Source: Pseudomonadota bacterium
GTDB taxonomy: Bacteria > Pseudomonadota > Gammaproteobacteria > Chromatiales > Chromatiaceae
NCBI GenBank assembly: GCA_052035915.1
Contig: JBPOHE010000007.1
Span: 1-60,613 of the forward strand
DNA length: 60,613 nt
Direction: 5' to 3'
Positions 8,609 through 59,260 of this stretch are shown here, one piece after another (the stretch's first letter is position 1; each line of letters starts with the position of its first letter). Made by a program: the position numbers and the translations under genes. The notes beneath the pieces are model-generated. The model was given only the letters and a program-made list of their open reading frames with translations, searched no databases and had not been told where the DNA came from.

Positions 8609-9604
8609 ATGCGCACCCGTCGTCTCGGTAACACGGACCTCCAGCTTTCCTGCATCGGCCTGGGAACCTGGGCCATCGGTGGTCCCTGGGACTTCGGTTG
8701 GGGGCCGCAATCGGACGAGGATTCGATCTCCACCATACGTCGGGCGCTGGACCTGGGCGTCAATTGGATCGACACCGCCCCCGTCTACGGTCTCGGGCAC
8801 GCCGAACTGGTCGTGGGCCGGGCCATCAACGGACGACGCGACAAGGTCATCATCGCCACCAAATGCGGTCTGGTGTGGGACGAATGCCCCCAGCGCAAGT
8901 TATGCGGCCGACTCAAGGCGGAAAGCATCAAGCGGGAGGCGGAAAACAGCCTGCGACGGCTGGGTATCGAGACCATCGACCTCTATCAGGTCCACTGGCC
9001 GAATCCCGAACCCGATATCGAAGAGGCTTGGTCGGCCATCGGGGAGCTGATCGCCGAGGGCAAGATCCGTTATGCCGGGGTCGCCAACTTCTCCGTGGCC
9101 CAGATGGAACGACTTCAAGCCATCCACCCCATCGCCTCCCTGCAACCGCCTTACAGCCTGCTGGATCGGGCCGTCGAGAGCGAATTGCTGCCCTATTGCG
9201 TAGCCCAGGGTATCGGCATCGTGGCCCACGGCCCCATGGCCTATGCCCTCTTGACCGGGAAGTTCAGCCACTCCTATATCGCCACCCTGCCCGCCGACGA
9301 CTGGCGCCGTCGGGGCGGTTGCTTCCAGGAACCCGAACTCAGCGCCAACCTGGCGTTCGTCGACAAGCTCAAGACCCTCGCCGAACGCCGCGGCCATCAG
9401 GTGGCCCATCTCGCCATCGCCTGGGTGCTGCGCCGACCCGAGGTGACCGCCGCCATCGTCGGCGCGCGTCGCCCCCAGCAGATCGAACAAACCCATGCCG
9501 CCGCCTCTCTGGATTGGCTGCCGGAAGATCTGGAGACCATTGAGGCCTGGCTGGCCGAGCGGGATCGGATCATCAGCACCCATATAGCCTGCTCCCCGGT
9601 GTGA
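8609..9604 (+). CDS. aldo/keto reductase
   Basis: 331 aa with typical AKR motifs: LGTWAIGG, GVNWIDTAPVYG, IDLYQVHWP. Confidence 0.9.
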   Translation: MRTRRLGNTDLQLSCIGLGTWAIGGPWDFGWGPQSDEDSISTIRRALDLGVNWIDTAPVYGLGHAELVVGRAINGRRDKVIIATKCGLVWDECPQRKLCGRLKAESIKREAENSLRRLGIETIDLYQVHWPNPEPDIEEAWSAIGELIAEGKIRYAGVANFSVAQMERLQAIHPIASLQPPYSLLDRAVESELLPYCVAQGIGIVAHGPMAYALLTGKFSHSYIATLPADDWRRRGGCFQEPELSANLAFVDKLKTLAERRGHQVAHLAIAWVLRRPEVTAAIVGARRPQQIEQTHAAASLDWLPEDLETIEAWLAERDRIISTHIACSPV

Positions 9605-9754
9605 TACCATTTCTTGATAGGTATTATCGATATTCGTAGGCTGGTGTTGAGGCGCGAAGCGCTGAAACCCAGCTTCTGAGTAGCTGGGATTCGCTTCGCT
9701 CATCGCCAGCCTACCCCATGACTTTCAGGCGGATAAACTAATAGGAAATGGTAT
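9604..9754. repeat. MITE-like repeat family A, copy 1 (151 bp)
   Basis: Perfect 10-bp terminal inverted repeats (ATACCATTTC ... GAAATGGTAT). An internal long hairpin is based on GCGAAGCGCTGAAACCCAGCT; it is partly deleted in this copy. Near-identical to 14639-14792 in the same orientation. Confidence 0.85.
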
Positions 9755-9970
9755 GAGATCCTCTTCCGATCCCTGATCAACACTGGACACCAGCACGCGA
9801 CCGGGGGTGAAGGGGAAGCTGATAACAATGTTTATGTACTAATGATATTTTGTTGAATATTTTTATGTAGCAATGCTTCTACCGCCCATGCCCGGGGCCT
9901 TTTGGGTCGATAAGCGGGTTGTCGTCGCCGGCTCGTCCTTCTCGGACTCTATCCAGCATGAGAGAACACC

Positions 9971-10372
9971 ATGAGCATCGAAGAGGAACATCAAGACGTC
10001 CTGCAGAATATCGAGTTCGTCGTCACCCAGATCTATAGACGCCATCCAACATTGACCGACTACGGCGTTCTGCGCGCCTACGAGGCCCTGGTTCAAACCT
10101 ATACCGCGGAACTCTCGGGACGTCCGCCGAAGCCGTTGATGTTACAAGGAGGGCCTGAAGGGGTGATGCTGGAGAACCTCAGAATCATCTGTGAATGGCG
10201 TCTGGGTCGGATCAACAGGCCAAACGCCGCGGGCCGGGGAGAACAGTCAGAGCCCATTGATATTCCGACCCTGATTCAATGCCTGAAAAGGCTCATCAAG
10301 TCCGTCAACAAGTGGAACAAAAGCGGCGGCCAACAAGGGTACCTGCACTTCATGACGCAATTTATCCATTGA
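9971..10372 (+). CDS. hypothetical protein (133 aa)
   Basis: Clean ORF preceded by an AT-rich stretch and followed by a perfect 18-bp palindrome (10384-10401, ACAGGCCGATCGGCCTGT). I recognise no motif. It is the only plus-strand gene in the accessory segment. Confidence 0.5.
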   Translation: MSIEEEHQDVLQNIEFVVTQIYRRHPTLTDYGVLRAYEALVQTYTAELSGRPPKPLMLQGGPEGVMLENLRIICEWRLGRINRPNAAGRGEQSEPIDIPTLIQCLKRLIKSVNKWNKSGGQQGYLHFMTQFIH

Positions 10373-10640
10373 GGGCTCGGACGACAGGCCGATCGGCCTG
10401 TGGTGGGTTGGCTTCGCTTATCAGCCTCACCAAGAGACGGCTGCCTCAGCCCTCTATACGCTGGTTCCCAAGCTCCAGCTTGGGAACCACTGCGTGGCAA
10501 GCTCTTGCTTACCGACCTTCGACATTCCCAAGGAGGACCTTGGGAACGAGCGGACCTCCTGTCATCACTGCTTGACTGTGAACAACTCCTCTTCAGGGTT
10601 CACGATGTTTGCATGTGCGATTGCCCTGTTGATGGTGGCG

Positions 10641-10692
10641 ATTAAACATGCGTGCGATTAGGCTACGCCAATCGCACCTACGGCCCTTTAAT
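10641..10692 (-). repeat. attC-like / REP-like imperfect palindrome downstream of TA cassette 1
   Basis: Minus-strand reading: TATTAAAGGGCCGTAGGTGCGATTGGCGTAGCCTAATCGCACGCATGTTTAAT. The toxin stop codon lies inside the first arm. A related copy with conserved arms and a variable centre is at about 59545-59600. Confidence 0.4.
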
Positions 10693-10972
10693 ACACCTCG
10701 TCGTGGGTGCCAATATCATGCAAAATGATGACTTCACATCCTGTTTTCTCATCGATTTCAATGGAGAAAACAATGCGGCAATCATAGCCACGGGAGCAGG
10801 CCCACAATCCCAGCAGAGCACCGCTAAGTTTATGCGTTCACGGGGCAGGCGCAAATACATCCGCCTGCATTCGCCGAAGCACCTCATCAATATAATCTTG
10901 CAACTTGGGAGTCTGTTTTCCAAATTTCCGATAGGCTCGCCGAAATCTTGGCGTGATAACCAACAGCCTCAT
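10688..10972 (-). pseudogene. RelE/YafQ-family toxin gene interrupted by an in-frame TGA (codon 45)
   Basis: Hand translation: MRLLVITPRFRRAYRKFGKQTPKLQDYIDEVLRRMQADVFAPAP*THKLSGALLGLWACSRGYDCRIVFSIEIDEKTGCEVIILHDIGTHDEVY*. The C-terminal half is the classic RelE/YafQ signature. The stop is at 10838-10840. The ATGA start/stop overlap with the antitoxin is preserved. Confidence 0.75.
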
Positions 10973-11199
10973 TCATCATCCTCAAGCGTCCGATGCAACT
11001 CGGCAATGGCCTCTTCTGCAGATTGCGCCTTGAATTGGCCATCGCGGAAAGCCGCTATTGACTTATTAGCATCGACCATGATTTCCTGCCGCCGGGTTTC
11101 AATCCGGCGCTTGCTTAGAATGTCGATCAGCATTTCTTGCTGATCTGGCGGAAGTTGCAAAACGGTATTAATGGCTTGATCCAAGGTTATGGCATTCAT
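10969..11199 (-). CDS. type II antitoxin (partner of the RelE/YafQ-like pseudogene)
   Basis: 76 aa from MNAITLDQAINTVLQLPPDQQEMLIDIL..., with an AAGGAG Shine-Dalgarno sequence 8 nt upstream. The acidic C-terminus and the 4-nt ATGA overlap with the toxin start are typical. The longer 11277 start lacks an RBS. Confidence 0.7.
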   Translation of the reverse strand: MNAITLDQAINTVLQLPPDQQEMLIDILSKRRIETRRQEIMVDANKSIAAFRDGQFKAQSAEEAIAELHRTLEDDE

Positions 11200-11303
11200 C
11201 GTTTCCACAATCTCCTTGCTTTCATTACAGCCGTAGAAGGTACGCGATGCGTACCCTACGAGGCTCTCCTGCGTCACGCATGCGTTCGGGTGGGATCATG
11301 AGT

Positions 11304-11359
11304 TCTAACGCCTGCCTCAGCCGCGAGCGTAGCGAGTCGTCTGGAGGCGCATGTTAGGA
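11304..11359 (-). repeat. attC-like recombination-site candidate
   Basis: Minus-strand reading: TCCTAAC-ATGCGCCTCCAG...CTGAGGCAGGC-GTTAGAA. This has an inverse-core-like YYTAAC and a core-like GTTAGR, with imperfectly paired inner arms. It is 56 nt long and lies between the two TA cassettes. Confidence 0.5.
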
Positions 11360-11477
11360 AATTACGTGTATTCTCTGGTTGCATTCAGCGTCGTTGGATG
11401 TTGGGTTGGCGATACGGCCGCCAACCCAACCTATGGTGCTGGGTCCGAGTGAAAGCGCAGGTTAGCTTTCAAATTCA

Positions 11478-11729
11478 TCAGTAGATTTCTCGACGATGGC
11501 CTATTGCAATAACGATCACAACTAACTGTTCGTCGTGGATTTCGTAGATGACTCTGAAATCGCCAATTCGGATTCGCCACGCATCTCTACCTGTGAGTTT
11601 CTTGCTGCCGACTGGTCTTGGATTGTGGGAAAGCGCTTTTACCTGATCAGCAATCTCTGCTCGACGGACTTTATCAATTTTTGCAAGGGACTTCTGCGCG
11701 CTTCGAGTGATTGAGATCGATTAGCTCAT
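11478..11729 (-). pseudogene. RelE/ParE-family toxin gene with TAA at codon 3
   Basis: Hand translation: MS*SISITRSAQKSLAKIDKVRRAEIADQVKALSHNPRPVGSKKLTGRDAWRIRIGDFRVIYEIHDEQLVVIVIAIGHRREIY*. This is the canonical RelE/ParE pattern (RIRIGDYRVIYEI...IGHR.EIY). The stop is at 11721-11723, and there is no downstream ATG/GTG/TTG near the N-terminus. Confidence 0.75.
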
Positions 11730-11932
11730 GAGCTGACATCAGTATCTATCTCGTTCAGTGCCTGATCAAAAGGGATTATCTCGTCGCTAGTGAGTTTAGC
11801 TTCGTCGTAAGCCTTTATGTCTTCGAGTTCCTCTATGGCGCTGAGGATTTCCCGCCATTCATTAATGGGTAAGACTACGGACTTAGGAGTCTGATTAGAG
11901 TCGACAATGTATTCTGGATGAAGAATGTTCAT
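11726..11932 (-). CDS. type II antitoxin (Phd/YefM-like by pattern)
   Basis: 68 aa: MNILHPEYIVDSNQTPKSVVLPINEWREILSAIEELEDIKAYDEAK... The ATGA overlap with the toxin start is present. Confidence 0.7.
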   Translation of the reverse strand: MNILHPEYIVDSNQTPKSVVLPINEWREILSAIEELEDIKAYDEAKLTSDEIIPFDQALNEIDTDVSS

Positions 11933-11984
11933 GGTGTGTACCTATTGTAACCACGCTTCGGATTTCGACTAGTTTAGTAGGTCG

Positions 11985-12040
11985 AAAAAACACAGTGTTG
12001 CCCGACATTTTATAGAAGATGTCGGGCACAGGTGCCCGAC
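11985..12040 (-). terminator. tandem hairpins plus T-run downstream of the two-gene operon
   Basis: On the minus strand, right after the TAG at 12041, come two hairpins. They are GTCGGGCAC-CT-GTGCCCGAC and TGCCCGACAT-cttctataaa-ATGTCGGGCA, followed by ACACTGTG-TTTTTT. Confidence 0.5.
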
Positions 12041-13159
12041 CTACCGGGCTGTCTTCACTCTATGTTTTTCGTAGGCTTCCATTTTGTATCTTTCTAAAGA
12101 CTCAATAACCAGTTTACTGACTGTGCTTCTGGTTAATCCTTCTTCATTTGCTTCTAATCTGAGCATCGAAAGATTAAGCGTCAACTCGCCCCCCGCAGAC
12201 TCATCCTTATCAGAAAACTCAAATAGTATTCTGCATGTTCCAGAGCAATTATCGCCTTCAAACTCATAATCACATTGAAGCCCGAACAATCGGATATACG
12301 GATGAATGGATTTATCACTGACGAAAAATGTCGAGTGAAGCCCCTGTCCCTTCATCTTCATGTCTTCGATCTTATCCTTCATCCACGCAATATTCTGCGG
12401 CGGGTTAGCAACGCTGTGATCTGGTGAAAAATGAATGTCCCTGGTGTCAACAAAGCGCAGCATTGAGTGACTTACGTTTTGGGTGAGATCATTCATAAAT
12501 TGTACGCGTGATTCATTCGTGAAGTCTGAATACCTGATTATTGTTACGCCGACACTTTGTTTGATGTGCCCTTCGCTTTTGAAGTGCTTTATCAAAGCAC
12601 TTGAGACTTTGTTTCCGAAGTCGATTGTTTCTGGTGCGGTATGGCTTAGCGAAATGTTTAAGGACTTACCATCGTTGCTTTTCCGTATTTCAACACGGCC
12701 CCCATGTGTGACTGTGTTTTCTCCCCAGTTCTTAACTGGATCACGTCTATCAATCTCGAAATCCATGTAGATGTGATCTGGATTATCATTTGATGCAGTA
12801 AAATTTGACATACTTGAAAGACTGAATACACCAAACTGGTCATTCAGAAGAGTCTCGTAGTCAGCCATATCTGGCAAAGACTCAAGCAAGTTGGATTCAG
12901 AATCCCAGCTAATAGTGCGAGTTTTAGATTTTGGCGATTCCTCTTTTGTCCTATAGCTCTCGCGCAAGTCCACGTACTCAAAGGGAGACAGCCCGGTCTT
13001 GATGAGAATGGGGCCTAGAACTTCCTTCTGATCTGACCCTGTAAATACCCCTCTTGCGCGCAAAACGTTTTTTAATTCGGCGTTCTTAACCTTTGTCTGG
13101 CCAATTAGCTGGCGCAAAAAATCCCTAGTAGGAAGCAAGACCTCTTCGTTGTTATTCAT
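12041..13159 (-). CDS. hypothetical protein B (372 aa), second gene of AT-rich operon
   Basis: Clean 372-aa ORF with a start ATG inside ATGAATAA, an 8-nt overlap with the upstream gene. Sampled lines are 32-50% GC, against about 63% in flanking core genes. I recognise no catalytic or nucleotide-binding motif. Confidence 0.8.
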   Translation of the reverse strand: MNNNEEVLLPTRDFLRQLIGQTKVKNAELKNVLRARGVFTGSDQKEVLGPILIKTGLSPFEYVDLRESYRTKEESPKSKTRTISWDSESNLLESLPDMADYETLLNDQFGVFSLSSMSNFTASNDNPDHIYMDFEIDRRDPVKNWGENTVTHGGRVEIRKSNDGKSLNISLSHTAPETIDFGNKVSSALIKHFKSEGHIKQSVGVTIIRYSDFTNESRVQFMNDLTQNVSHSMLRFVDTRDIHFSPDHSVANPPQNIAWMKDKIEDMKMKGQGLHSTFFVSDKSIHPYIRLFGLQCDYEFEGDNCSGTCRILFEFSDKDESAGGELTLNLSMLRLEANEEGLTRSTVSKLVIESLERYKMEAYEKHRVKTAR

Positions 13160-14102
13160 TATTCAAGCTCCTGTAGTCTGGCCGAAAGCTAGCTACTTTT
13201 ATCCGGGTAAAGATATCGCTCTCAAAACCTGTGGCAGCCCTCTTGACTGCATCACCATGACTAGACTCAACATAATTAGGAAATAGAAACAGCAACGTGC
13301 AACTCATGTCTTGAGTGTATTCTTTGGCTGCTTGGATTAGCCTGCGCAGAGAGTCTTGCGCAAAACCTTCTATGGTAGACAGACAGAAAATATCCTGATC
13401 ATGCCGGGACTGTGCCTTAATGATTAGCGGAATCAAAGGTGAGGTCAGAAATTCAAGCGGACATACCTTTCCATATCTCGATATGGTTTTGTCAACATAA
13501 CTTAGTGAAGTCTCAGGATAATAAAAGTGCAGGCGATCGGAGTCGTACTCATGTCTCAAATACTGCACGGTGTCGAATATAAAGTTTATTCTCTGATTAT
13601 CAACCACATGAAACGACTCAAAGCTCCAATCGGAATCAAGTTGTGAGTTTGCAATTTTTGATACGACATCATCATATGTTTCTTCGTTACTCGATAGCCA
13701 GAACAATACCCCGGAATCCCTACTTTTCGTTGTTCGCCCCAACAATTCCTGCTGTTGCTTTTTTAACTCTGAATGTTTGTAACACTCCAAGGTTTCGACT
13801 AAGTCCTTGGCGTGCGATTTGAAAGTCGACTTTGGATTGTTTTCGTACGGGTTTTGTGAATGCTTAACAGATATTACCGCGCTTTCGGCAGTCGAGCCTT
13901 CAAGTGGGCTTCTATAGCAGTACAAATAGTCAATTCCATGTGTTTCTCTTTTTCCAGTCTTTGACCCTTCACTGGCATGTTTGCTTGGCTTTCTACATGG
14001 CAGTTCTTGCCCAGATAAAACGCCTTCCCACCCCAATAAATGGAAGAAATTGCCAACGATATTCTCGCCAATTTCTCCAATTTTTTTAGATTTTTCACCC
14101 AT
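13152..14102 (-). CDS. hypothetical protein A (316 aa) with PD-(D/E)xK-like (Mrr/DUF4365-like) N-terminal region
   Basis: The N-terminus is KKIGEIGENIVGNFFHLLGWEGV ... THGIDYLYCYRSP ... AVISVKHS. This resembles the helix (GE..E) / beta (G-I-D) / beta (S-V-K) core of restriction-endonuclease-fold proteins (E13, D58, S78-x-K80). I recognise nothing in the C-terminal 180 aa. AT-rich. Confidence 0.8.
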   Translation of the reverse strand: MGEKSKKIGEIGENIVGNFFHLLGWEGVLSGQELPCRKPSKHASEGSKTGKRETHGIDYLYCYRSPLEGSTAESAVISVKHSQNPYENNPKSTFKSHAKDLVETLECYKHSELKKQQQELLGRTTKSRDSGVLFWLSSNEETYDDVVSKIANSQLDSDWSFESFHVVDNQRINFIFDTVQYLRHEYDSDRLHFYYPETSLSYVDKTISRYGKVCPLEFLTSPLIPLIIKAQSRHDQDIFCLSTIEGFAQDSLRRLIQAAKEYTQDMSCTLLFLFPNYVESSHGDAVKRAATGFESDIFTRIKVASFRPDYRSLNNE

Positions 14103-14180
14103 TGCAAGTTCCTTTCACCAATCTGCGGGTTGGATTTTTATGCATAACATGTAATCGACGACATCGTCTTCCTACCAAAA

Positions 14181-14198
14181 GTATCTAAATCTAGATAC
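14181..14198. promoter_or_regulatory. palindrome GTATCTA-AATC-TAGATAC about 80 nt upstream of protein A (possible operator)
   Basis: 7-bp perfect arms, seen directly in the AT-rich leader of the operon. The role is inferred only. Confidence 0.3.
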
Positions 14199-14499
14199 CA
14201 ACCCTTACCCCAATGGTCCTCCATCAGCTCCCACCCTGGATCCCAACCCCGGGGCTACGGCATTTTCGTAGCCTGACTTCCACAACCGCGGATGAGGTCG
14301 CCATATCCATCCAGCCTGATTGACCTCGTTGCGCCGATCGATCTCCCAATATTCCACCCGAGCTGTACGCCACGCAGGCCGGGCACTTTATGGGATGCCC
14401 GACATTTTCCATTGAATCCCTGGACAAGGCCAGGCTTTGGCCCAACCTTCTACATCACTCCCTAACAGCTGAGATAACCTTGAAGAGTCAGGTTTTGGC

Positions 14500-14625
14500 G
14501 TTCCCGGGCATGGGCGGTTTAGCCCGATTTTTCCTTCTCCTAGAGAGAACAATGCCCCATCATGAATGGGCATATGTTCTCTTTAGAAGAACGAAGAATG
14601 GCCGTTTGGGGCCCATGCCCGGAAC
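14500..14625. repeat. MITE-like repeat family B copy (paired TGTTCTC/GAGAACA palindromes)
   Basis: Terminal inverted repeats GTTCCCGGGCATGGGC ... GCCCATGCCCGGAAC. The core is TTCTCCTAGAGAGAACAATGCC...GCATATGTTCTCTTTAGAAGAAC. Confidence 0.7.
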
Positions 14626-14638
14626 CTGGAAGGGCCTC

Positions 14639-14792
14639 ATACCATTTCTCGATAGGTATTATCGATATTCGTAGGCTGGTGTTGAGGCGCGAAGCGCTGA
14701 AACCCAGCTTCTCAGTAGCTGGGTTTCAGCGCTTCGCTCATCGCCAGCCTACCCCATGGCTTTCAGGCGGATAAACTAATAGGAAATGGTAT
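14639..14792. repeat. MITE-like repeat family A, copy 2 (154 bp)
   Basis: Same TIRs as copy 1. It carries the full 21-bp-stem hairpin GCGAAGCGCTGAAACCCAGCT-tctcagt-AGCTGGGTTTCAGCGCTTCGC. It is in direct orientation relative to 9604-9754. Confidence 0.85.
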
Positions 14793-14861
14793 CAGCGACT
14801 AGCTCGGCCATCCTTTGCCGAGGTTCCCTGAAACACCCGAGCCCTTCCCCGCGACCAAGGC

Positions 14862-21621: not shown

Positions 21622-21729
21622 GATCCCCTCCCCTTGCGGGAAAGTATGGCCCGTTCCGGCGGCTCTGGAAGAGACCGCGGGCCGGGAGGCTCCGTTCATG
21701 GCAAGCCTGTCGAACCACTCGTGGATCGT

Positions 21730-21846
21730 CCGGGCACAGCCGCCTGAAGGAAGATATTTGTTCTCAAAAAGAGAACAATAAGCATATTTGACAGGCTATT
21801 ATTCTCTTATTAAGAACACTTTTGAGGCCAATTCGGTCCATGCCCG
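21730..21846. repeat. MITE-like repeat family B copy
   Basis: Ends are CCGGGCA...TGCCCG. The core has TGTTCTCAAAAAGAGAACA (21759-21777) and ATTCTCTTATTAAGAACA. It lies about 110 nt upstream of the AmmeMemoRadiSam operon start. Confidence 0.65.
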
Positions 21847-22169
21847 AGCCGTTTCGAGGTTTTCTCTATTCCGCTCCGGGTTGTTGTCCGAGCGACCAGG
21901 GTCAGCCACTCGGTCGGGCCTCCGGGTCCGATATCAGTGATGGAGCTCGGACGGGGTCCGACGTTTGAAATATCGTCCTGGAGTTGTCGGGCTGTAGCTG
22001 TACCCAAGACTCCCCGCCGGTGCCATGTGGAGAAGGGGGATTTTCTGGCCTGAACCCCCGCGGCCAGGATGGCCCGGACCTTTCATGGACGCCATCGGAC
22101 CAATCTGAGAAAATGCGCACGTTTCGCTAGTCGCTGAATTTGGCGAACAGCGGTTTTTCCATGGATCGA

Positions 22170-22192
22170 GCCGGGATCACCCCGGCTTTTTT
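22170..22192 (+). terminator. intrinsic-terminator-like hairpin (GCCGGG-atcac-CCCGGC + TTTTTT) with no upstream ORF
   Basis: Seen directly. It is plus-strand oriented (the U-run only follows on plus). It ends 14 nt before the DUF2065 ATG, and there is no credible plus-strand CDS in 21850-22170. Confidence 0.45.
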
Positions 22193-22206
22193 GTGAAACT
22201 TTGTCC

Positions 22207-22395
22207 ATGTCCCACGAACTCTGGATCGCCTTTGCCCTGCTCCTGGTCATCGAAGGCATCTGGCCCTTCTTGAGCCCAGGGAGCTTCCGCAACATGTTGG
22301 CCAACATGGCCCAGCAAGAGGATACATTGATCAGAACCCTGGGTTTCATCAGCATGGTCGTCGGCGTCGTGCTCCTGTATATCGTCAACGGCTAG
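22207..22395 (+). CDS. DUF2065 (YjeT-like) small membrane protein
   Basis: MSHELWIAFALLLVIEGIWPFLSPGSFRNML... matches the YjeT family pattern. Its position upstream of hisZ-purA matches known gammaproteobacterial synteny. An alternative TTG start lies at 22201. Confidence 0.75.
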   Translation: MSHELWIAFALLLVIEGIWPFLSPGSFRNMLANMAQQEDTLIRTLGFISMVVGVVLLYIVNG

Positions 22396-25635: not shown

Positions 25636-25647
25636 CCACCCTTAGAA

Positions 25648-25727
25648 GCAGAGTAGGTCGGCAATCCTTTGCCGACACCCCTTGATCGGCATCAAATGGC
25701 GGCAAGGGGTTGCCGCCCTACGAACTC
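25648..25727 (+). repeat. REP-like repeat family C, copy 1 (about 80 bp, two short hairpins)
   Basis: GCAGAGTAGGTCGGCAATCCTTTGCCGAC...GATCGGCATCAAATGGCGGCAAGGGGTTGCCGCCCTACGA. The hairpins are GTCGGCAA-tcct-TTGCCGAC and GGCGGCAA-gggg-TTGCCGCC. Confidence 0.8.
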
Positions 25728-25845
25728 CCCAGGGTGGCGGCCACAGGCCCGGCCAGGGCCTGGTCTACAATGGAGCTATGGAGGGAGCGGGTTTGTCGAC
25801 TAGCCCGACCCCCGGACGATCCATTCTTCTAGAGGAGAGACCCTC

Positions 25846-26319
25846 ATGACCGTGGCCACGAAACTTCAAACCTATCTAGATGAGATGGGTGAGGGTTATG
25901 AGCTGATCCGCCACCCTCATAGCCATTGCAGCATGGAAAGCGCGGCGTCCGCCCATATCCCGGGAGACAATCTGGCGAAAGGGATAGTGCTGCGGGATAC
26001 CCAGGGACATGTATTGCTGGTGGTGCTCCCCGCGGATTTTCATGTCAACCTCAAGCAACTCGGTACCTTGCTGCAGCGGGAAGTCCATCTGGTGGACGAA
26101 GAGGAACTCGGATCGCTGTTTCCAGACTGCGCCCTCGGGGCCATCCCGCCCATAGGTCCGGCCTATGCCCTGCCGACCATCTGGGATCGGGTGCTGGGCG
26201 ATAAGGAAACCGTCTTTTTCGAGGCGGGCGATCATGAATCCCTGGTCAAGGTGAGCGGCCGCGTCTTCCATGAACTCATGGCCCCGGCGGAGCGGGCCCA
26301 TTTCAGCCGGCATCTGTAG
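25846..26319 (+). CDS. YbaK/EbsC-type aminoacyl-tRNA deacylase domain protein
   Basis: 157 aa with ...AKGIVLRDTQGHVLLVVLPADFHVNLKQL...LGAIPPIGP...FFEAGDH, the pattern of the YbaK/ProX editing-domain family. Confidence 0.7.
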   Translation: MTVATKLQTYLDEMGEGYELIRHPHSHCSMESAASAHIPGDNLAKGIVLRDTQGHVLLVVLPADFHVNLKQLGTLLQREVHLVDEEELGSLFPDCALGAIPPIGPAYALPTIWDRVLGDKETVFFEAGDHESLVKVSGRVFHELMAPAERAHFSRHL

Positions 26320-26415
26320 CCCGCTTTTCTCGCCAGTCGTCCAGGGCGGGGACCGAGCCTGAAGCCGCCGACGGGAGAAAGCCCCGGCAGAGAGGGATAT
26401 CAGCGCTCGGAGGCT

Positions 26416-26532
26416 CCGGGCCTGGGCTGAAAAGCGCTGGTTTCTGTTCTCATTAGGAGAACAATGCGGCCTGTAGAAAGGCATTGTTCTCGATTGGAGA
26501 ACAAAAAACCGGGCCAAAGCGCCCTGGCCCGG
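26416..26532. repeat. MITE-like repeat family B copy (best-preserved)
   Basis: Ends are CCGGGCCTGGGC ... GCCCTGGCCCGG. The two palindromes are TGTTCTCATTAGGAGAACA (26445-26463) and TTGTTCTCGATTGGAGAACAA (26484-26504). It lies between convergent genes. Confidence 0.75.
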
Positions 26533-26812
26533 AAGCGTCAAAAGACGAACTGGCCGGCCATGAAGGTCGCCGCCAGGCCCGCCTGGCCGGCGGCGAACCT
26601 GATGGCTCCAACGACTCCGGCTCCGTCCCGACCTCCCAGGGCTCATCTTCCCAGGCCAGCCAGGCCTCCATCCGCTGTTGTCGCGCGTCCCTCTCCAATT
26701 GGCGCCGATCCCTGTGCGCCCCGCCCTTGCGCAGCAAGGGCGATTTGGCCGCCAGATTACGTATCTTCACCCCTTTCATACTTTCTCTCCCAAGGCCACT
26801 GAAAGCCTTCAC

Positions 26813-28009
26813 TCACCCCTTCACGCACACCAGCTGTTTCAAGGTGTGCACCACTTCCACCAGGTCGGTCTGATTGGCCATCACCTGGTCGATGTCTTTA
26901 TAGGCGCCGGGGATCTCGTCGATCACCCCGCCGTCCTTGCGGCACTCGATCCCCTGGGTCTGGGCGGCCAGGTCGTCGGTGCTGAATTTCCGCTTCGCCG
27001 CATGGCGGCTCATGCGCCGGCCCGCGCCGTGAGAGCAGGAGCAAAAGGACTCCGGGTTGCCGAGACCGCGCACCACATAGCTTCTGGCCCCCATGCTGCC
27101 GGGAATGATGCCGAGCTGGTCCGCGTAGGCGGCGATGGCCCCCTTGCGGGTCAGGTAGACCTTGGCCCCGTAGTGCTCCTCGAGGCTCACGTAGTTGTGA
27201 TGGCAGTTCACCGCCTCCTTGGTGGCCTCGAAGGGGGGCAGCACCGGGCGCAGGGCCTCGACGATCAGCCGCATCATCTCGCGGCGGTTGGTCATGGCGT
27301 AGTCCTGGGCCCAGTGCACCGCCTCCACGTAGTCGTCGAAGTGTTCGCTACCCTCGGTGAGATAGGCGAGGTCTTTGTCCGGCAGGGTCCCCAGCAGCTT
27401 ACCCATGTCCCGCTTGGCGAGGTCGATGAAATAGGTGCCCATCACGTTGCCGATGTTGCGGCTGCCGGAGTGCAGCATGATCCAGACCTGATCCGCCTCG
27501 TCGAGACAGATCTCGATGAAGTGGTTGCCGCCCCCCAGGGTGCCGAGCTGGCGTACCCAGGGGAGAAAGGCGCGGCTTTGCTTGCGGTTGATGCCGGGGT
27601 GCTTGGCGATGATCCGCTCCAACCGCTGATCCAGGGCGACGATGGTGGAGCGTTTCACCGGGTCGTGATCGTGCTGCTCGAACCCCACCGGCACGGCCGC
27701 CTCGATAGCGGAGCGCAGGCGATGGAGCTTGTCCGGCAACTGCTCGGCACGCAGGCCCAGGCGCACGGCGTTCATGCCGCAGCCGATGTCCACCCCCACG
27801 GCGGAGGGGATGATCGCCCCGACGGTGGGGATCACCGCGCCGATGGTGGCGCCGATACCCATGTGCACGTCCGGCATCGCCGCCACATGATGGTGAATGA
27901 AAGGGAGCTGGGCGATGTTGCCGAGCTGATCGATGGAGGCGGCGTCGATGTCGTCGGTGTAGACCTTCACCGGCGCCTTGCCTTTGTTGAGGGTCATCTT
28001 GATGGGCAT
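26813..28009 (-). CDS. rtcB: RNA 3'-phosphate ligase RtcB
   Basis: 398 aa with GGGNHFIEIC, HSGSRNIGN and the C-terminal CSCSHGAGRRMSR (guanylylated His context). No rtcA or rtcR is adjacent. Confidence 0.9.
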   Translation of the reverse strand: MPIKMTLNKGKAPVKVYTDDIDAASIDQLGNIAQLPFIHHHVAAMPDVHMGIGATIGAVIPTVGAIIPSAVGVDIGCGMNAVRLGLRAEQLPDKLHRLRSAIEAAVPVGFEQHDHDPVKRSTIVALDQRLERIIAKHPGINRKQSRAFLPWVRQLGTLGGGNHFIEICLDEADQVWIMLHSGSRNIGNVMGTYFIDLAKRDMGKLLGTLPDKDLAYLTEGSEHFDDYVEAVHWAQDYAMTNRREMMRLIVEALRPVLPPFEATKEAVNCHHNYVSLEEHYGAKVYLTRKGAIAAYADQLGIIPGSMGARSYVVRGLGNPESFCSCSHGAGRRMSRHAAKRKFSTDDLAAQTQGIECRKDGGVIDEIPGAYKDIDQVMANQTDLVEVVHTLKQLVCVKG

Positions 28010-28102
28010 TGGGGGTTCTCCAAAGGTAGCTGTTAGAATTCTATGAGCTTCTCAACCTGCGTTTGGCAGAAAGTTATTGTCTGTGGCAAGGGTAAAACAG
28101 CC

Positions 28103-28351
28103 ATGCGAATCACCGCTGAACTCGATCAACAGCACTTCGAACGATTGCAACAGCTCGAGCAACAGTCCGGCAAGGACACCTCGAGGCTGATTGAAGAGGC
28201 CATCGACGAGATGTTCGCCCACCGCAAGGACGTTCCGGCTCACCAAGCCCTCGAAATCATGCGTCGCAACGGCTTTATCGGCTGTATGGAGGGCGACGAC
28301 GACCTTTCGGTTCTCTACAAGGAAAAGCTCGACTGGTCCCATAAGCTATGA
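28103..28351 (+). CDS. vapB: ribbon-helix-helix antitoxin (VapB-like)
   Basis: Start trimmed to MRITAELDQQHFERLQQLEQQSGKDTSRLIEEAIDEMF (RHH pattern). It has a 4-nt overlap with the PIN gene. Confidence 0.7.
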   Translation: MRITAELDQQHFERLQQLEQQSGKDTSRLIEEAIDEMFAHRKDVPAHQALEIMRRNGFIGCMEGDDDLSVLYKEKLDWSHKL

Positions 28352-28767
28352 TCATCGCCGACACCGGTTTCTGGATCGCCTTGGGAAACCGCAAAGATCA
28401 GTTTCACCAAACGGCCATCGATGCCATGAAGCAGATCGATGAGCCCCTGATCACCACTTGGCCGGTCATGACGGAGGTCTGTCACCTTCTCCTCAAACAG
28501 CTCGGCGTGCGTGGCGAAACCTCGTTTTTGAAGAGCTGGCGCGATGGCGCATTCGTACTTTTCGATCTTCGAGACGAGCACTTACCCCGCCTGGTTCAGT
28601 TGGTCGAAAAGTACGCTGACTTACCTATGGACCTTGCTGATGCGTCGCTCGTCATCCTTGCCGAGGAGCTTCGCGAAGGCCGCATCCTGAGCACCGACCG
28701 CCGCGACTTTCGGGCTTACTGCTGGAAAAACCAGCACCCTTTTCATAATCTGCTGTTTGATCAATAA
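28348..28767 (+). CDS. vapC: PIN-domain toxin (VapC family)
   Basis: MIIADTGFWIAL... (acidic D5), ...TTWPVMTEV..., ...DLADASLVILAEEL... These are the conserved acidic positions of PIN ribonucleases. Confidence 0.8.
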   Translation: MIIADTGFWIALGNRKDQFHQTAIDAMKQIDEPLITTWPVMTEVCHLLLKQLGVRGETSFLKSWRDGAFVLFDLRDEHLPRLVQLVEKYADLPMDLADASLVILAEELREGRILSTDRRDFRAYCWKNQHPFHNLLFDQ

Positions 28768-30456: not shown

Positions 30457-30531
30457 TGGCGGAAATGGAGGATTTGAACCCCCTACCCACTGGTGATCGG
30501 CCAGTTGCTCTACCCAACGAGCTCATTTCCA
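30457..30531 (-). ncRNA. tRNA-like element with non-canonical positions (possible tRNA pseudogene)
   Basis: The minus strand folds into a cloverleaf: (U)GGAAAU-GA-GCUC-GUUGGGUA-GAGC-A-ACUGG-CCGAUCA-CCAGU-GGGUA-GGGGG-UUCAAAU-CCUCC-AUUUCC(G)-CCA. It is non-canonical at several points: the anticodon loop CCGAUCA has C33 and C37, position 8 is G, and the 1-72 pair is U-G or missing. A second T-arm/acceptor fragment (GGUCCGCGGUUCGAAUCCGCUUGACAGCA) follows at 30411-30446. Confidence 0.35.
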
Positions 30532-30678
30532 CGGGCTTTCAAGGATCTCGCTGCCCCGGTACGGACCCTGCGATCGCGCCATCCATTCGAGGCGGCGGAG
30601 AGGCTTGGGCACGCCAGGCCGGAATGGGAACCGGCACCGCTGGAGCAGAGAGCCTTCCCTGAAAGAGTTTTACGGGGC

Positions 30679-30840
30679 TTAAGGCGATTTCTGTCAAAAG
30701 ATAACCAGCCTGCGGGTCTGTTCGTCCGCCTTCGGTGTTCCGCCAGCCGTTACAGAGCTCGCTCTGCGCCGTCTGACGCGCCTGGAAAGCGAACGAACCG
30801 CCGTCGCATTCAGGTATGTCTTTTTCCGGCAATCGCCTAA
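30679..30840. repeat. MITE-like repeat family D, copy 1 (about 160 bp)
   Basis: The element runs TTA(A)GGCGATTTCTGTCAAAA...CCGGCAATCGCCTAA, with terminal inverted repeats TTAGGCGAT/ATCGCCTAA. It aligns along its whole length with 37505-37664. Confidence 0.8.
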
Positions 30841-33645: not shown

Positions 33646-33845
33646 AGATCGTTCCTCCTTCTGTCCTTTCTGATCGTTGTCTTCCGGGAATTCCACTGGG
33701 CGACAGAGTGTATCCCAGTCCGATCGCCAGCCATCAGTGACCTCGATCAAAGAATCAACACCTTCTCGGTCGATGACTGCCGTGACCGGCAGATCGGCGG
33801 CGATTTGTTGCTGATTGCGGTTTGCCCGGACCAGCACGAGCTGGG

Positions 33846-33962
33846 CCGGGCATGGGGGCACGAGTCGGCCTATTGTTCTTTTTATGAGAACAATATATTC
33901 AAAAAATAAATTATTGTTGTTTTTAAAAGAACGGAAATGAACCTATTCGGCCCGATGCCCGG
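33846..33962. repeat. MITE-like repeat family B copy
   Basis: Ends are CCGGGCATGGGG...GATGCCCGG. The core has TTGTTCTTTTTATGAGAACAA plus an AT-rich second half-site. It lies about 200 nt upstream of the SBBP gene start. Confidence 0.65.
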
Positions 33963-34164
33963 ATATTTCTGGTCGGGGACATCAGGGACGCCGGATTCAC
34001 TGCCCGGCGGCCCGCGAGCTCAAGGTCTCCGTCTCAGCGGACGCGCCAGACGACCACCCTTCACATGCCAAGATTGCACCCACCTCGGACAATGCCTAGA
34101 GTGATGAGCAGCCGCTCATGTTCATTGGCGGAGCGGACATCCCCAAAAGCGAGGTTTGAGGTTG

Positions 34165-34244
34165 GCAGAGTAGGTCGGCAATCCTTTGCCGACACTCCCT
34201 GATCGGCATCAAATGGCGGCAAGGGGTTGCCGCCCTACGAACTC
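34165..34244 (+). repeat. REP-like repeat family C, copy 2
   Basis: Near-identical to 25648-25727 and 52486-52567, in the same orientation. Confidence 0.8.
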
Positions 34245-37480: not shown

Positions 37481-37504
37481 GGGCCAATCGAACAGGAATT
37501 GGCA

Positions 37505-37664
37505 TTAGGCGATTTCTGTCAAAAAATATACCAGCCTGCTGGTCTGTTCGTCCGCCCTCGGCGTTACGCCAGCCGTTACAGAGCGCGCTCCGCGCCGGCT
37601 GGCGCGCCTGGAAGACAAACGAACAGAGGGCGCATCAGATATATCTTTTCCGGCCATCGCCTAA
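37505..37664. repeat. MITE-like repeat family D, copy 2
   Basis: Same orientation and ends as 30679-30840. Confidence 0.8.
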
Positions 37665-41408: not shown

Positions 41409-41825
41409 ATGGACAAGATAAGTCTGCTTCCACCACTCCAGGCGACGCTGAATATCCTGGCCACCGCACTCATGATCGCCGCCTATTATGCCATTCGCCG
41501 CAACCACCCATCCGCTCATCGGCTAGGCATGATCGGCGCCTTGATTACCTCGATCCTCTTCCTCGGCTCCTATCTCATCTATCATCATGAAGTCGGCTAT
41601 GTGCCCTTCACCGGTCAAGGGATCATGCGTCCTCTCTATTTCACTATTCTGTTCACCCATATCGCCACCGCCGCGGCCATCGTCCCCTTGGTGCTCATCA
41701 CCCTGTTTCACGCCCTGCGGGGACATACCCAGCAACATCGACGGATCGCCGCCTGGACCTTGCCGCTGTGGTTGTATACCTCCATCACCGGCGTCATGGT
41801 CTATATCCTGGTGTTTCGGCTTTAG
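41409..41825 (+). CDS. DUF420 membrane protein
   Basis: Start trimmed to MDKISLLPPLQATLNILATALMIAAYYAIRR. Four TM helices and HRRIAAWTLPLWLYTSITGVMVY match the DUF420 pattern, often found near haem-copper oxidase genes. Confidence 0.7.
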   Translation: MDKISLLPPLQATLNILATALMIAAYYAIRRNHPSAHRLGMIGALITSILFLGSYLIYHHEVGYVPFTGQGIMRPLYFTILFTHIATAAAIVPLVLITLFHALRGHTQQHRRIAAWTLPLWLYTSITGVMVYILVFRL

Positions 41826-42062
41826 CCCGCATTTCTCACCGGGCGCCGTAGCGAGGACGCGAGGGGCCACTGTGGTGGGGCTCACAGAGGAATCGGCGGC
41901 GAAGGCGTAGCTGAGACTACGTCGAGCCGAGGATTCCGCGTACGTCCCGCCACAGCAAGCCAATCGGCGTCCGCAGTAGACGACTGGTGAGAAATGCGGG
42001 CCAGATCCCGAGCCGGCCAGATCTCATACCCCTTGCTGTTGGTTTTTTCCTCATGAGCCATA

Positions 42063-42179
42063 CGGGCCAGGCACTGAGGCGCGGATTTTCTGTTCTCTTA
42101 GTGAGAACAATTATAAAGAATAAGGCGATATTGTTCTTCAAATAAGAACTAAAATTACCCATTTTCCGTCGATGCCCGG
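42063..42179. repeat. MITE-like repeat family B copy
   Basis: The core is TGTTCTCTTAGTGAGAACA ... TTGTTCTTCAAATAAGAAC and the right end is GATGCCCGG. It lies between convergent operons. Confidence 0.65.
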
Positions 42180-42295
42180 AACAACCGAGCCTGAATATGG
42201 CTTCCTGTCGAATCTTTCCCTCAGCGGTGAACGATGGGCTGGCGCGCGCCTCCGCCTGATCCACTCGAAGACCCAGCAGGCATTCGGAAAGGGGG

Positions 42296-52446: not shown

Positions 52447-52485
52447 GTCGCCCGATCCTGGCGGCTCCGGGAAGGGGACCGCGTA

Positions 52486-52567: not shown

Positions 52568-52666
52568 CGGGAAGGAAACCGCGTAATCGGATGGAGGCGG
52601 ACGGGGGCCACGAAGGTGTGGCTGAGAAAAAGACTCAGCAGGAATCGGTATTCGAGTTCGGGTGTT

Positions 52667-52784
52667 CCGGGCATCGACGGCCAATGGCCGATTTCCGTTC
52701 TAATACAGAGAACAATATATCAATATCTCGCGGTATTGTTCTCTAATGGAGAACAAAAACCGGCCCAACACAGCCAGGCCCGGG
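52667..52784. repeat. MITE-like repeat family B copy
   Basis: Ends are CCGGGCATCGACGG...CCAGGCCCGGG. The core is CAGAGAACAATATAT...TTGTTCTCTAATGGAGAACAA. Confidence 0.7.
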
Positions 52785-52906
52785 AGGCTCTCCCAACCAC
52801 CAGGGGCCAAATCCAAATCTGATTGGCCAGTTATTTCAGCGAGAGAGGGATGTGCCGTCACTCCCCTCGCCCGTTTGCGGGAGAGGGGAGCTGGACGGTT
52901 ACAAGA

Positions 52907-59129: not shown

Positions 59130-59260
59130 CGCCCGGTCGTTCTGGGCCTCGACTGAAAAAGGCTTGTTTTCGTTCTTTTATGAAGAACAATACCTCAATA
59201 TAACCGTTATTATTCTCTATTTGAGAACAATAACGCTTCCAAAACCGCCACCCCCGGCCC
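59130..59260. repeat. MITE-like repeat family B copy (degenerate ends)
   Basis: The core is GTTCTTTTATGAAGAACAATACC...ATTATTCTCTATTTGAGAACAATAA. The ends are less clear than in the other copies. Confidence 0.55.

What the first reader, a model, noticed from the sequence alone, without database searches (positions are those of the whole stretch)
26416..26532. Seven-copy repeat family built on paired TGTTCTC-N5-GAGAACA palindromes with GC-rich CCGGGC...GCCCGG ends
Copies lie at about 14500-14625, 21730-21846, 26416-26532, 33846-33962, 42063-42179, 52667-52784 and 59130-59260. Each is about 115-130 bp. Each has GC-rich inverted termini and an AT-rich core. The core holds two palindromic sites of the form (T)TGTTCTC-N5-GAGAACA(A), spaced about 38-40 bp centre to centre. 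That is roughly one copy per 8 kb, always intergenic. Two copies sit upstream of operon starts (AmmeMemoRadiSam and the SBBP protein). The others sit between convergent genes. The conserved dyad pair looks more like a protein-binding module than a simple terminator. It could be a MITE carrying an operator, or a nucleoid-protein or recombinase site. I cannot match the dyad to a regulator consensus I know.
Basis: seen in the sequence. Interest (0 to 1): 0.55.

Follow-up and report, generated by a model that had tools for sequence, protein, structure and literature searches.

The report
Conserved 122-bp intergenic repeat family
Seven copies of a previously undescribed 122-bp quasi-palindromic DNA repeat lie between genes of an uncultured wastewater bacterium; their four short conserved motifs are kept by selection while the rest drifts, which points to a protein-docking DNA element rather than a simple terminator or a recently active jumping element.

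Summary
The window holds exactly seven copies, scoring 61-92 bits, and the next best hit scores under 5 bits. A metagenome scan added about 170 more copies from one uncultured lineage, probably a Chromatiales-like gammaproteobacterium from EBPR sludge.

Copies have a near-constant length: 117±1 bp from CCGGGC to GCCCGG. They have an intrinsic polarity. Their conservation is mosaic. The conserved parts are the GC clamps, four AGAACAA half-sites forming two GTTCT-N7-AGAAC dyads 41 bp apart, and phased A/T runs, all at about 96-97% consensus. Everything between sits at about 38% pairwise identity.

There is no compensatory base-pair change, so sequence is conserved, not structure. In orthologous copies the conserved columns change about 6 times less often than the variable ones. 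AT content cycles every 10.5 bp, symmetrically about the centre. The dyad almost never occurs outside the element (312 inside, 4 outside, in 1 Mb).

I found no target-site duplication, parent IS, empty site, relic copy, or match in phages, plasmids, E. coli or Rfam.

Best reading: an old REP/BIME/ERIC-class repeat kept as a double-stranded DNA docking module for an unidentified protein, in gene-3' intergenic spaces. Mobility is unproven and the binding protein is unknown. It is a new member of a known kind, of moderate interest.

The parts
14502..14625 (-). Copy 1 of the repeat. It lies 14 bp from a 157-bp repeat, at the right edge of a low-GC insert.
   Evidence: Scores 89.5 bits with nhmmer and 81.5 bits with model R1. 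Dyads at 14533-14551 and 14575-14593.
21728..21848 (-). Copy 2. It is upstream of the 1256-aa spermine-synthase/FMN-bind/Fer4 gene and downstream of ORF 22083-22388.
   Evidence: The orthologous copy in L149 sits at 10594-10712.
26413..26535 (+). Copy 3, the flagged copy. It lies between the convergent tRNA_edit (25846-26319, +) and RtcB (26813-28009, -) genes.
   Evidence: Best-scoring copy at 102 bits (nhmmer) and 92 bits (R1). Identical or nearly identical orthologues occur in L001, L002 and L149.
26416..26421 (+). Left GC clamp CCGGGC of copy 3.
   Evidence: These columns are 96-100% conserved in 178 copies and were not part of the search pattern.
26445..26463 (+). Dyad 1 of copy 3: TGTTCTC-ATTAG-GAGAACA.
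   Evidence: Exact match. Its GTTCT and AGAAC columns are 93-100% conserved.
26466..26482 (+). Variable central spacer of copy 3, between the inner half-sites AGAACAAT and ATTGTTCT.
   Evidence: No column here exceeds about 59% consensus. Substitutions between orthologues cluster here.
26485..26503 (+). Dyad 2 of copy 3: TGTTCTC-GATTG-GAGAACA.
   Evidence: Exact match. Its centre lies 40 bp from the centre of dyad 1.
26509..26532 (-). Terminator-like GC hairpin of the right arm, on the minus strand, followed by TTTTTTGTTC. It includes the right GC clamp GCCCGG (26527-26532).
   Evidence: 10 pairs, the best terminator-like site in 14.3-34.1 kb. Across the family this arm folds at a mean of -8.6 kcal/mol, against -6.9 for shuffles.
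33844..33963 (-). Copy 4, between the divergent SBBP/DUF7948 gene (-) and a phosphoribosyltransferase gene (+).
42061..42182 (-). Copy 5, between the convergent DUF420 (+) and COX1-like (-) genes.
   Evidence: Its orthologue in L082 differs at 2 variable columns only.
52664..52786 (+). Copy 6, between a convergent methyltransferase gene (+) and a 5'-nucleotidase-like gene (-).
   Evidence: It has inward-facing terminator-like sites on both arms.
59139..59258 (+). Copy 7, between a convergent hybrid histidine-kinase gene (+) and an Mrr_cat gene (-). Its right terminus is degenerate.

Best explanation
This is an old repeat family restricted to one lineage. It belongs to the same broad class as REP/BIME, RIP and ERIC elements. 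The unit is 122 bp and quasi-palindromic. Reading inward from each end it has a GC clamp (CCGGGC / GCCCGG), an arm with an A or T run, and a dyad GTTCT-N7-AGAAC. The two dyads are 41 bp apart, about 3.9 helical turns, so they face the same side of the helix. A free 17-18-bp spacer separates them.

The most likely working form is double-stranded DNA. A sequence-specific protein, either two dimers or a dimer of dimers, would read the four AGAACAA half-sites. The phased A/T tracts would let roughly 120 bp bend or wrap. The GC clamps would fix the ends of this unit.

Copies sit mostly where genes end. They are kept intact by selection at each site. The plausible role is architectural: an insulator or topological element between transcription units. 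GC hairpins followed by T runs on the arms may help stop incoming transcription in some copies.

Shown directly: the anatomy, the mosaic conservation, the absence of covariation, the in-situ constraint, the helical phasing and the intergenic placement. Inferred: that a protein binds, which protein it is, and what the complex does. The family probably began as a mobile element, but nothing indicates recent movement.
For: (1) Real family. There are 7 copies in the window and about 178 unique copies in about 1.1 Mb of related contigs. The distance from CCGGGC to GCCCGG is 117 bp in 73 of 113 copies and 116-118 bp in 108 of 113.

(2) Mosaic conservation. There are 46 columns at 90% consensus or more. 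Pairwise identity is 0.944 in those columns and 0.384 in the variable columns, where 0.26 is the random expectation. The 25 conserved columns that were not in my search pattern average 96% consensus.

(3) Sequence is conserved, not structure. For the long-hairpin model, 85.9% of cells pair against 85.8% in shuffles (155 of 500 shuffles reach the observed value). For the local-hairpin model it is 83.8% against 84.0%. The RNAalifold covariation term is +0.02.

(4) Selection in place. In 17 distinct orthologous pairs, conserved columns outside the search pattern changed at 4 of 405 cells. Variable columns changed at 53 of 837 (Fisher p = 4e-6). Flanks changed at 1.9%. No decayed relics exist: there is a score gap between about 10 and 24 bits.

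(5) Helical phasing. The per-column AT fraction has its strongest period at 10.5 bp, with amplitude 0.110 against 0.054 for permutations (0 of 1000 reached it). The AT profile is mirror-symmetric about the centre (r = 0.92).

(6) Orientation does not follow flanking transcription. Among co-directional contexts the split is 42 to 28 (p = 0.12).

(7) Placement. Of 115 copies, 33 are in convergent, 70 in co-directional and 12 in divergent contexts. The background proportions are 19%, 62% and 19% (chi-square p = 0.008).

(8) The dyad is confined to the element: 312 occurrences inside and 4 outside in 1.0 Mb.
Against: - No binding protein was identified and no gene is consistently linked to the element.
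- All copies come from essentially one species-level lineage, so selection is measured only over shallow divergence.
- Loci were retrieved by a pattern lying inside the conserved blocks. I corrected for this, but profile-based detection still favours intact copies.
- Phasing and symmetry could partly be a by-product of a palindromic ancestor.
- The phase does not match the published E. coli gyrase motif: r = -0.21 overall and -0.31 on the arms when aligned centre to centre. There is no IHF consensus in any window copy. So the two best-known architectural partners of such repeats are not indicated.
- Gene calls were made with a crude ORF/GC3 heuristic.
Confidence: 0.5

Rival explanations
1. A purely selfish non-autonomous transposable element (MITE-like). 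On this view the GC clamps and the four half-sites are the end-binding and subterminal sites of a transposase or recombinase encoded elsewhere in the genome. The blocks look conserved only because copies that lose them stop multiplying.
For: - It has short terminal inverted repeats, a uniform size, and hundreds of intergenic copies that sometimes cluster 105-420 bp apart.
- It shares intergenic 'nests' with other repeat families, including GTAG-headed REP-like elements.
- The dyad exists only inside the element.
- A REP doublet has inserted into one copy.
Against: - There is no target-site duplication, either exact or degenerate: the best observed value is 0.354 against a permuted mean of 0.346.
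- No longer element with the same termini turned up in about 1 Mb.
- All 32 orthologous sites were occupied.
- The nearest paralogue is a median 78% identical, and there is no burst of young copies.
- Blocks change about 6 times less than variable columns within orthologous copies. Copy-selection alone does not predict this.
- There are no decayed relics.
- There are no copies on viral contigs, plasmids or phages.
Confidence: 0.25
2. An RNA-level element in 3' UTRs: a terminator, an mRNA-end stabiliser or a processing site. Here the dyads and clamps would act as hairpins in the transcript.
For: - Single copies fold well, with z-scores from -1.9 to -7.9. Six of 7 fold better than all 200 shuffles.
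- On the minus strand the right arm is a GC hairpin followed by a T run in many copies. Its mean energy is -8.6 kcal/mol, and 52% of copies reach -8 or lower.
- Terminator-like sites occur in 4 of the 7 window copies.
- Copies favour gene 3' ends.
Against: - There is no covariation at any helix.
- Stems are conserved as sequence, although a hairpin would tolerate compensated changes.
- Orientation is not tied to the direction of the flanking genes (42 to 28, p = 0.12).
- Three of the 7 window copies have no terminator-like site.
- The left arm folds barely better than shuffles: -6.1 against -4.9 kcal/mol.
- Twelve of 115 copies lie between divergent genes.
- No Rfam family matches.
Confidence: 0.13
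3. A strong DNA-gyrase site, analogous to BIME-2 or the Mu strong gyrase site. The roughly 120-130-bp symmetric unit with phased AT/GC content would wrap around gyrase, relieving positive supercoils between converging genes.
For: - The length is about 122 bp. The unit has two-fold symmetry (r = 0.92) and 10.5-bp AT phasing.
- This compares with the published 130-bp symmetric gyrase motif, which has 10.75-bp periodic arms, and with the enrichment of gyrase cleavage in BIME-2 (PMC6379681).
- Copies are enriched between convergent genes.
Against: - Aligned centre to centre, the element's AT profile is anti-correlated with the published gyrase consensus: r = -0.21 overall and -0.31 on the arms. 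The best lag gives only +0.11.
- The published motif carries its cleavage-site preferences in its central part, whereas this element's centre is its most variable part.
- Gyrase recognition is degenerate and works by indirect readout (PMC6379681). It does not explain invariant GTTCT/AGAAC words.
- The position matrix itself could not be retrieved, so only the consensus was compared.
Confidence: 0.05

Closest known systems
BIME-1 / RIP elements of E. coli (two inverted REPs flanking an IHF site) and BIME-2 (gyrase target)
   Same: Both are about 100-150-bp intergenic mosaics, with GC-rich palindromic outer parts around a protein-binding core. Both occur in many copies, mostly at gene 3' ends and between convergent genes. 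Both have a proposed architectural or topological role (BIME-2 and gyrase: PMC6379681; the rest is from general knowledge).
   Different: There is no sequence similarity to any E. coli genome and no IHF consensus. The phase does not fit the gyrase motif. The outer parts are not REP hairpins with a GTAG head. The core carries two identical dyads instead of one IHF site.
ERIC / IRU (about 127-bp imperfect palindromes of enterobacteria)
   Same: Both have nearly the same size, an imperfect palindrome, intergenic placement and either orientation. Copies can be old and orthologously retained (from general knowledge).
   Different: There is no sequence similarity. In this family, conservation is confined to short blocks with near-random sequence between them, and two internal dyads dominate.
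MITEs such as Correia/CREE elements of Neisseria
   Same: Both have short terminal inverted repeats, a uniform small size, hundreds of copies, and possible effects on termination.
   Different: There is no target-site duplication, no parent IS, no insertion polymorphism and no young copies.
REP / REPIN elements mobilised by RAYT transposases
   Same: Both are abundant intergenic palindromic repeats in Gammaproteobacteria. True REP-like repeats with GTAG heads occur in the same genome.
   Different: This element lacks the GTAG head and is not a 20-40-bp hairpin or a doublet of such hairpins. Its conserved words lie in an AT-rich core.

Membership tests
MITE | Terminal inverted repeats | tested here: met
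   The termini CCGGGC and GCCCGG are 96-100% conserved, with weaker complementarity further in.
MITE | Target-site duplication flanking each copy | tested here: not met
   Exact matches sit at background for k of 5 or more. A degenerate test gives a maximum of 0.354 against a permuted mean of 0.346. Decay of old duplications cannot be excluded.
MITE | A longer autonomous element with the same termini | tested here: inconclusive
   No extra terminus-like sites bracketing a gene were found in about 1 Mb. No complete genome of the host is available.
MITE | Insertion polymorphism (empty sites) or young near-identical copies | tested here: not met
   All 32 orthologous comparisons were filled, but the loci had been selected for carrying the element. 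The nearest paralogue is a median 78% identical.
REP/REPIN (RAYT-dependent) | A 20-40-bp imperfect hairpin with a conserved 5' GTAG-type head, often as inverted doublets | tested here: not met
   The consensus has no GTAG head. Other repeats in the same DNA do have one.
BIME-1/RIP | IHF consensus WATCAANNNNTTR between the palindromes | tested here: not met
   There are zero matches in the whole window.
ERIC and other enterobacterial repeats | Sequence similarity to the family consensus | tested here: not met
   There is no blastn match in 5,426 E. coli genomes, which carry ERIC and BIME copies.
Strong gyrase site / gyrase motif | A 130-bp symmetric motif with roughly 10.75-bp GC/AT phasing, in register with a central cleavage site | tested here: not met
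   Period and symmetry are present. The register is opposite to the published consensus (r = -0.21 overall, -0.31 on the arms) and the centre is variable. Only the consensus, not the matrix, was available.
Intrinsic terminator | GC-rich hairpin immediately followed by a T run, facing incoming transcription | tested here: inconclusive
   This is present in 4 of the 7 window copies, and on both arms in 1. The right arm averages -8.6 kcal/mol and the left arm -6.1, barely above shuffles.
Structured RNA family | Base pairs kept through compensatory changes, or a match to a curated model | tested here: not met
   There is no covariation and no Rfam match at gathering or relaxed thresholds.
Operator set of a transcription factor (regulon) | Stand-alone copies of the dyad in promoters, outside the repeat | tested here: not met
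   In 1.0 Mb there are 312 dyads inside elements and 4 outside, one of which lies in a partial element.
Site-specific recombination site | Inverted arms around a 6-8-bp crossover spacer, with a recombinase and rearranged products | not testable with these tools
   The geometry GTTCT-N7-AGAAC is compatible. No inversions or deletions were seen among the 18 orthologous pairs. No linked recombinase was found.

The most novel reading that the evidence does not exclude
The element is not a decayed transposon. It would be a dedicated chromosomal architecture site of a lineage-specific DNA-binding protein. Hundreds of identical two-dyad, helically phased, clamp-bounded 122-bp modules would be selected at the ends of transcription units. 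They would form a defined wrapped or looped nucleoprotein particle that insulates neighbouring units, a bacterial counterpart of positioned insulator complexes.
Probability: 0.2. Interest if true: 0.75.

Novelty: new member of a known kind. Interest (0 to 1): 0.42.

Why it matters
Interspersed intergenic repeats are common. It is rarely clear whether they are junk, mobile DNA or working parts of the chromosome. This family gives an unusually clean signal: short motifs at fixed spacing stay constant while everything between them drifts, and the motifs resist change at individual loci. If a specific protein docks on them, the family would be a ready-made map of several hundred architectural or insulating sites in an uncultured wastewater bacterium. 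It would also offer a simple two-dyad probe for fishing out that protein. If it turns out to be only an old transposon relic, it is still a useful strain marker and a cause of fragmented assemblies for this lineage.

Tried and rejected
- **Long hairpin, cloverleaf or local hairpins as selected structures:** rejected. Pairing equals the shuffled controls and there is no covariation.
- **A larger element of about 250 bp:** conserved-looking flank motifs occur in only about 10-20% of copies. Left and right flanks are not inverted repeats of each other. They belong to neighbouring repeat families.
- **Target-site duplications:** none found.
- **Parent IS or extra termini:** none found.
- **Empty sites:** none found. 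A synteny break next to L025/L069 was uninformative.
- **Deeper orthologues through RtcB and PurA homologues:** the lineage has no sister between 99% and about 77-83% identity, and the 80-83% RtcB contigs have a different gene order.
- **Genes lying between closely spaced copies:** ordinary genes with no recognisable DNA-binding or transposase features; not run against Pfam.
- **Gyrase-site idea:** the period fits but the register does not.
- **IHF site:** absent.
- **Similarity to Tn3-family ends:** this came only from my memory of those sequences. It was not supported by any plasmid match, so I dropped it.
- **Literature searches for the motif words:** nothing relevant.
- **'Sumerlaeota' host suggested by the single GTDB hit:** rejected as probable mis-binning.
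- **A first 'left gene points in' bias (75 to 40):** this only restates the excess of convergent over divergent contexts. The true orientation test is 42 to 28 and is not significant.

Full report
**Observation.**
The dyad pattern TGTTCTC-N5-GAGAACA, allowing two mismatches, hits 11 times and only inside those copies. Shuffled sequence gives 0.16 hits. A first alignment showed that the copies align end to end, with invariant CCGGGC / GCCCGG termini and GTTCT / AGAAC words, but only 58% mean column identity. A maximally sensitive profile scan finds the seven copies at 62-102 bits and nothing else above about 4 bits. An Infernal sequence model gives 61-92 bits. As a control, 21 viral contigs that match only the inner inverted repeat by chance score 11-18 bits over the inner 40-60 positions.

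**Where else it occurs.**
A strict pattern found one copy among 185,579 species-representative genomes, on a 6-kb contig of a MAG labelled Candidatus Sumerlaeaceae. Nearly all hits come from Ga0268298 (JGI 3300028804) and from WBZP01 (GCA_009612975.1) together with the related WGS sets WBZV01 and WBZU01. Profile scanning of these loci gave 177-180 sites and 178 unique sequences.

The host is probably not Sumerlaeota. PurA and RtcB from the window are 99% identical to proteins on those contigs. After that, their best named relatives are 70-77% identical (PurA 75-77%, RtcB 70-78%) and come from Chromatiaceae, Sedimenticolaceae and Thiodiazotropha. The 'Sumerlaeaceae' contig is 92.5% identical over 870 bp to a WBZP01 contig, so it is most likely mis-binned. 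The JGI sample number appears in a preprint on Accumulibacter in phosphorus-removal reactors, which suggests an activated-sludge origin. I did not verify this.

No copy occurs on viral contigs, plasmids, phages or in E. coli genomes. No Rfam family matches.

**Anatomy.**
A first round of mutual-information analysis showed A-with-A and T-with-T coupling between the two arms. That meant copies had been mixed in both orientations. After re-orienting, strand scores differ by a median of 33 bits, so the element has a polarity.

The oriented consensus is:
TTCCGGGCATCGGCnGAAAATGGCCATTTTTCGTTCTTnTTTnGAGAACAATA-n17/18-ATTGTTCTCnnTnnGAGAACAAAAAACCGGnCnAAAnnGCCCAGGCCCGGAA.

In the window the orientations are -, -, +, -, -, +, +. 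Length is nearly fixed: the distance from CCGGGC to GCCCGG is 116-118 bp in 108 of 113 copies. Forty-six columns are at least 90% conserved. Pairwise identity is 0.944 in those columns and 0.384 in the 51 variable columns, where 0.26 is the random expectation.

My search pattern lay inside some of the conserved blocks. The 25 conserved columns outside it cover the clamps, half-site a (GTTCT) and parts of the A and T runs. These still average 96% consensus.

**Structure or sequence?**
Single copies fold into long hairpins with z-scores down to -7.9. This comes from the palindromic consensus, not from selection for pairing.
- Complementarity within a copy in the variable columns equals that between unrelated copies.
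- After orientation, no column pair shows covariation.
- On an 88-copy alignment, the long-hairpin model pairs 85.9% of cells against 85.8% in shuffles (155 of 500 shuffles reach it).
- The local-hairpin model gives 83.8% against 84.0%.
- RNAalifold keeps only 12 near-invariant pairs, with a covariation term of +0.02.

**Selection.**
Orthologous copies from different assemblies were recognised by their homologous flanks. Across them, conserved columns changed at 7 of 808 cells, variable columns at 55 of 887, and flanks at 232 of 12,129. Retrieval had conditioned on some of the blocks, so I recounted. Conserved columns outside the pattern changed at 4 of 405 cells, against 53 of 837 for variable columns (Fisher p = 4e-6).

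There is no tail of decayed copies. Scores fall from 24 bits or more straight to 10 bits or less, both in the window and in 1 Mb of loci. The nearest paralogue is a median 78% identical, so there has been no recent burst of copying.

**Mobility.**
- There is no exact or degenerate target-site duplication.
- No additional terminus-like sites bracket a gene.
- All 32 orthologous sites examined were occupied. This set is biased towards occupied sites.
- Copies sometimes cluster 105-420 bp apart.
- They share intergenic spaces with other repeat families.

A mobile origin is therefore plausible, but current mobility is not shown.

**Context.**
Flanking genes were called with a crude ORF/GC3 caller. 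Of 115 copies, 33 lie between convergent genes, 70 between co-directional genes and 12 between divergent genes. The background proportions are 19%, 62% and 19% (chi-square p = 0.008). Orientation is not tied to the direction of transcription: the co-directional cases split 42 to 28 (p = 0.12).

Terminator-like hairpins followed by T runs face inward on the arms in 4 of the 7 window copies, and on both arms in one. Across the family, the right arm read on the minus strand folds at a mean of -8.6 kcal/mol. The left arm folds at -6.1, barely better than shuffles.

**Tests for a DNA-level signal.**
- The dyad is confined to the element: 312 occurrences inside and 4 outside in 1.0 Mb. This argues against a captured operator of a host regulator.
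- The AT fraction per column has its strongest period at 10.5 bp, with amplitude 0.110 against 0.054 for permutations (0 of 1000 reached it).
- The AT profile is mirror-symmetric about the centre (r = 0.92).
- The dyad centres are 41 bp apart, close to four helical turns.

This geometry resembles the published 130-bp symmetric gyrase motif, which has 10.75-bp periodic arms, and BIME-2 repeats are gyrase targets (PMC6379681). However, the element's profile is anti-correlated with the published gyrase consensus when the two are aligned centre to centre (r = -0.21 overall, -0.31 on the arms). Its centre is also its most variable part. No IHF consensus occurs in the window.

**Interpretation.**
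The evidence best fits a double-stranded DNA recognition module. It consists of four identical half-sites arranged as two dyads on one face of the helix, with phased bendable tracts and fixed GC ends. Purifying selection maintains it at hundreds of gene-distal intergenic sites. I estimate this at about 0.5.

The rivals are:
- A selfish MITE whose blocks are transposase sites, about 0.25. It is weakened by the in-situ constraint and by the lack of any hallmark of mobility.
- An RNA-level terminator or stabiliser, about 0.13. It is weakened by the absence of covariation, the free orientation and the incomplete terminators.
- A gyrase site, about 0.05. The register does not fit.

The identity of the binding protein and the biological effect are inferences, not findings.

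**Comparison and novelty.**
The element works most like BIME/RIP-type mosaics and resembles ERIC in size and form. It fails the tested membership criteria of MITEs, REP/REPIN, RIP, ERIC, the gyrase motif, structured RNAs and regulon operators. No tool or literature search found it described. I file it as a new member of the known class of bacterial interspersed intergenic repeats, with an unusually clear signature of site-by-site constraint.

**Limits.**
- All copies come from one lineage and only shallow divergence is available.
- The loci were ascertained by pattern matching.
- The gene calling is heuristic.
- There are no expression or binding data.

Noticed in passing
window 25647-25728, 34165-34244, 52485-52568: A separate repeat of about 80 bp occurs at these three places, 92-97% identical between copies. 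It has two GC hairpins (GTCGGCAA..TTGCCGAC and GGCGGCAA..TTGCCGCC) and a GTAG head. This looks like a classical REP doublet (REPIN) and is distinct from the element under study. A weak sub-threshold Rfam hit (Termite-flg, 27.7 bits against a gathering score of 40) falls on one copy.
   Followed up: partly
window 9604-9757 and 14639-14795, with 9758-14638 between: Two direct copies of a 157-bp internally palindromic repeat (95% identical) bracket a region of about 4.9 kb with low GC (0.43-0.51 against 0.60-0.64). The ORFs in that region (for example 12041-13159 and 13152-14102) have no Pfam or PADLOC hit. This looks like an inserted island. Copy 14502-14625 of the studied element lies at its right edge.
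   Followed up: partly
window 30676-30840 and 37501-37664; tRNA at 30459-30531: A 166-bp direct repeat (85.5% identical) starts about 145 bp from a tRNA gene and recurs 6.8 kb away. It brackets the SBBP/DUF7948 gene and its neighbours. This may mark the ends of an island integrated next to the tRNA.
   Followed up: no
window 41825-42001: A 177-bp self-complementary (palindromic) stretch, 71% identical arm to arm, lies directly after the DUF420 gene and 60 bp from copy 42061-42182.
   Followed up: no
L045 10380-10900: One copy of the element is interrupted at its centre by a REP doublet (GTAGGATGCGGTGAAC...CACCGCATCCTAC). The left half of the element plus about 15 bp of flank is duplicated on either side of the insertion.
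   Followed up: partly
L034, L046, L076, L097, L130, L141 (metagenome contigs with 37-41% GC): These short contigs have no long ORFs and are probably eukaryotic host DNA. They carry a different, near-perfect palindrome of about 150 bp that shares the same core: GTTCT-N7-AGAACAAT(AT)...(AT)ATTGTTCT-N7-AGAAC. Its outer arms are unrelated to the element studied here. Unlike in this family, its N7 spacers are conserved and mutually complementary (CGTGGCA / TGCCACG). This could be coincidence or convergence on the same recognition word; it is unresolved.
   Followed up: partly
L025 (JAIBAT010000017.1, MAG labelled Candidatus Sumerlaeaceae): This 6-kb contig is 92.5% identical over 870 bp to a WBZP01 contig of the repeat-bearing lineage. 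That lineage's PurA and RtcB are gammaproteobacterial in affinity. The contig is probably mis-binned in the MAG.
   Followed up: partly
L001 2493-2930 versus window 28043-28767 / L002 / L149: The small two-gene cassette next to RtcB differs between strains. L001 has HicA plus a UPF0150 (HicB-like) gene. The window has a weak ribbon-helix-helix ORF plus a 139-aa ORF. The flanking genes are the same in both. This looks like a swapped toxin-antitoxin module.
   Followed up: no
orthologous copies, e.g. L060 5138 / L111 1363 and L062 5386 / L102 10386: Substitutions between orthologous copies cluster in the 17-18-bp central spacer, with up to 6 changes within 10 nt while the rest of the element is almost unchanged (one other change). 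This may be a local mutation hot spot at the centre of the palindrome.
   Followed up: no
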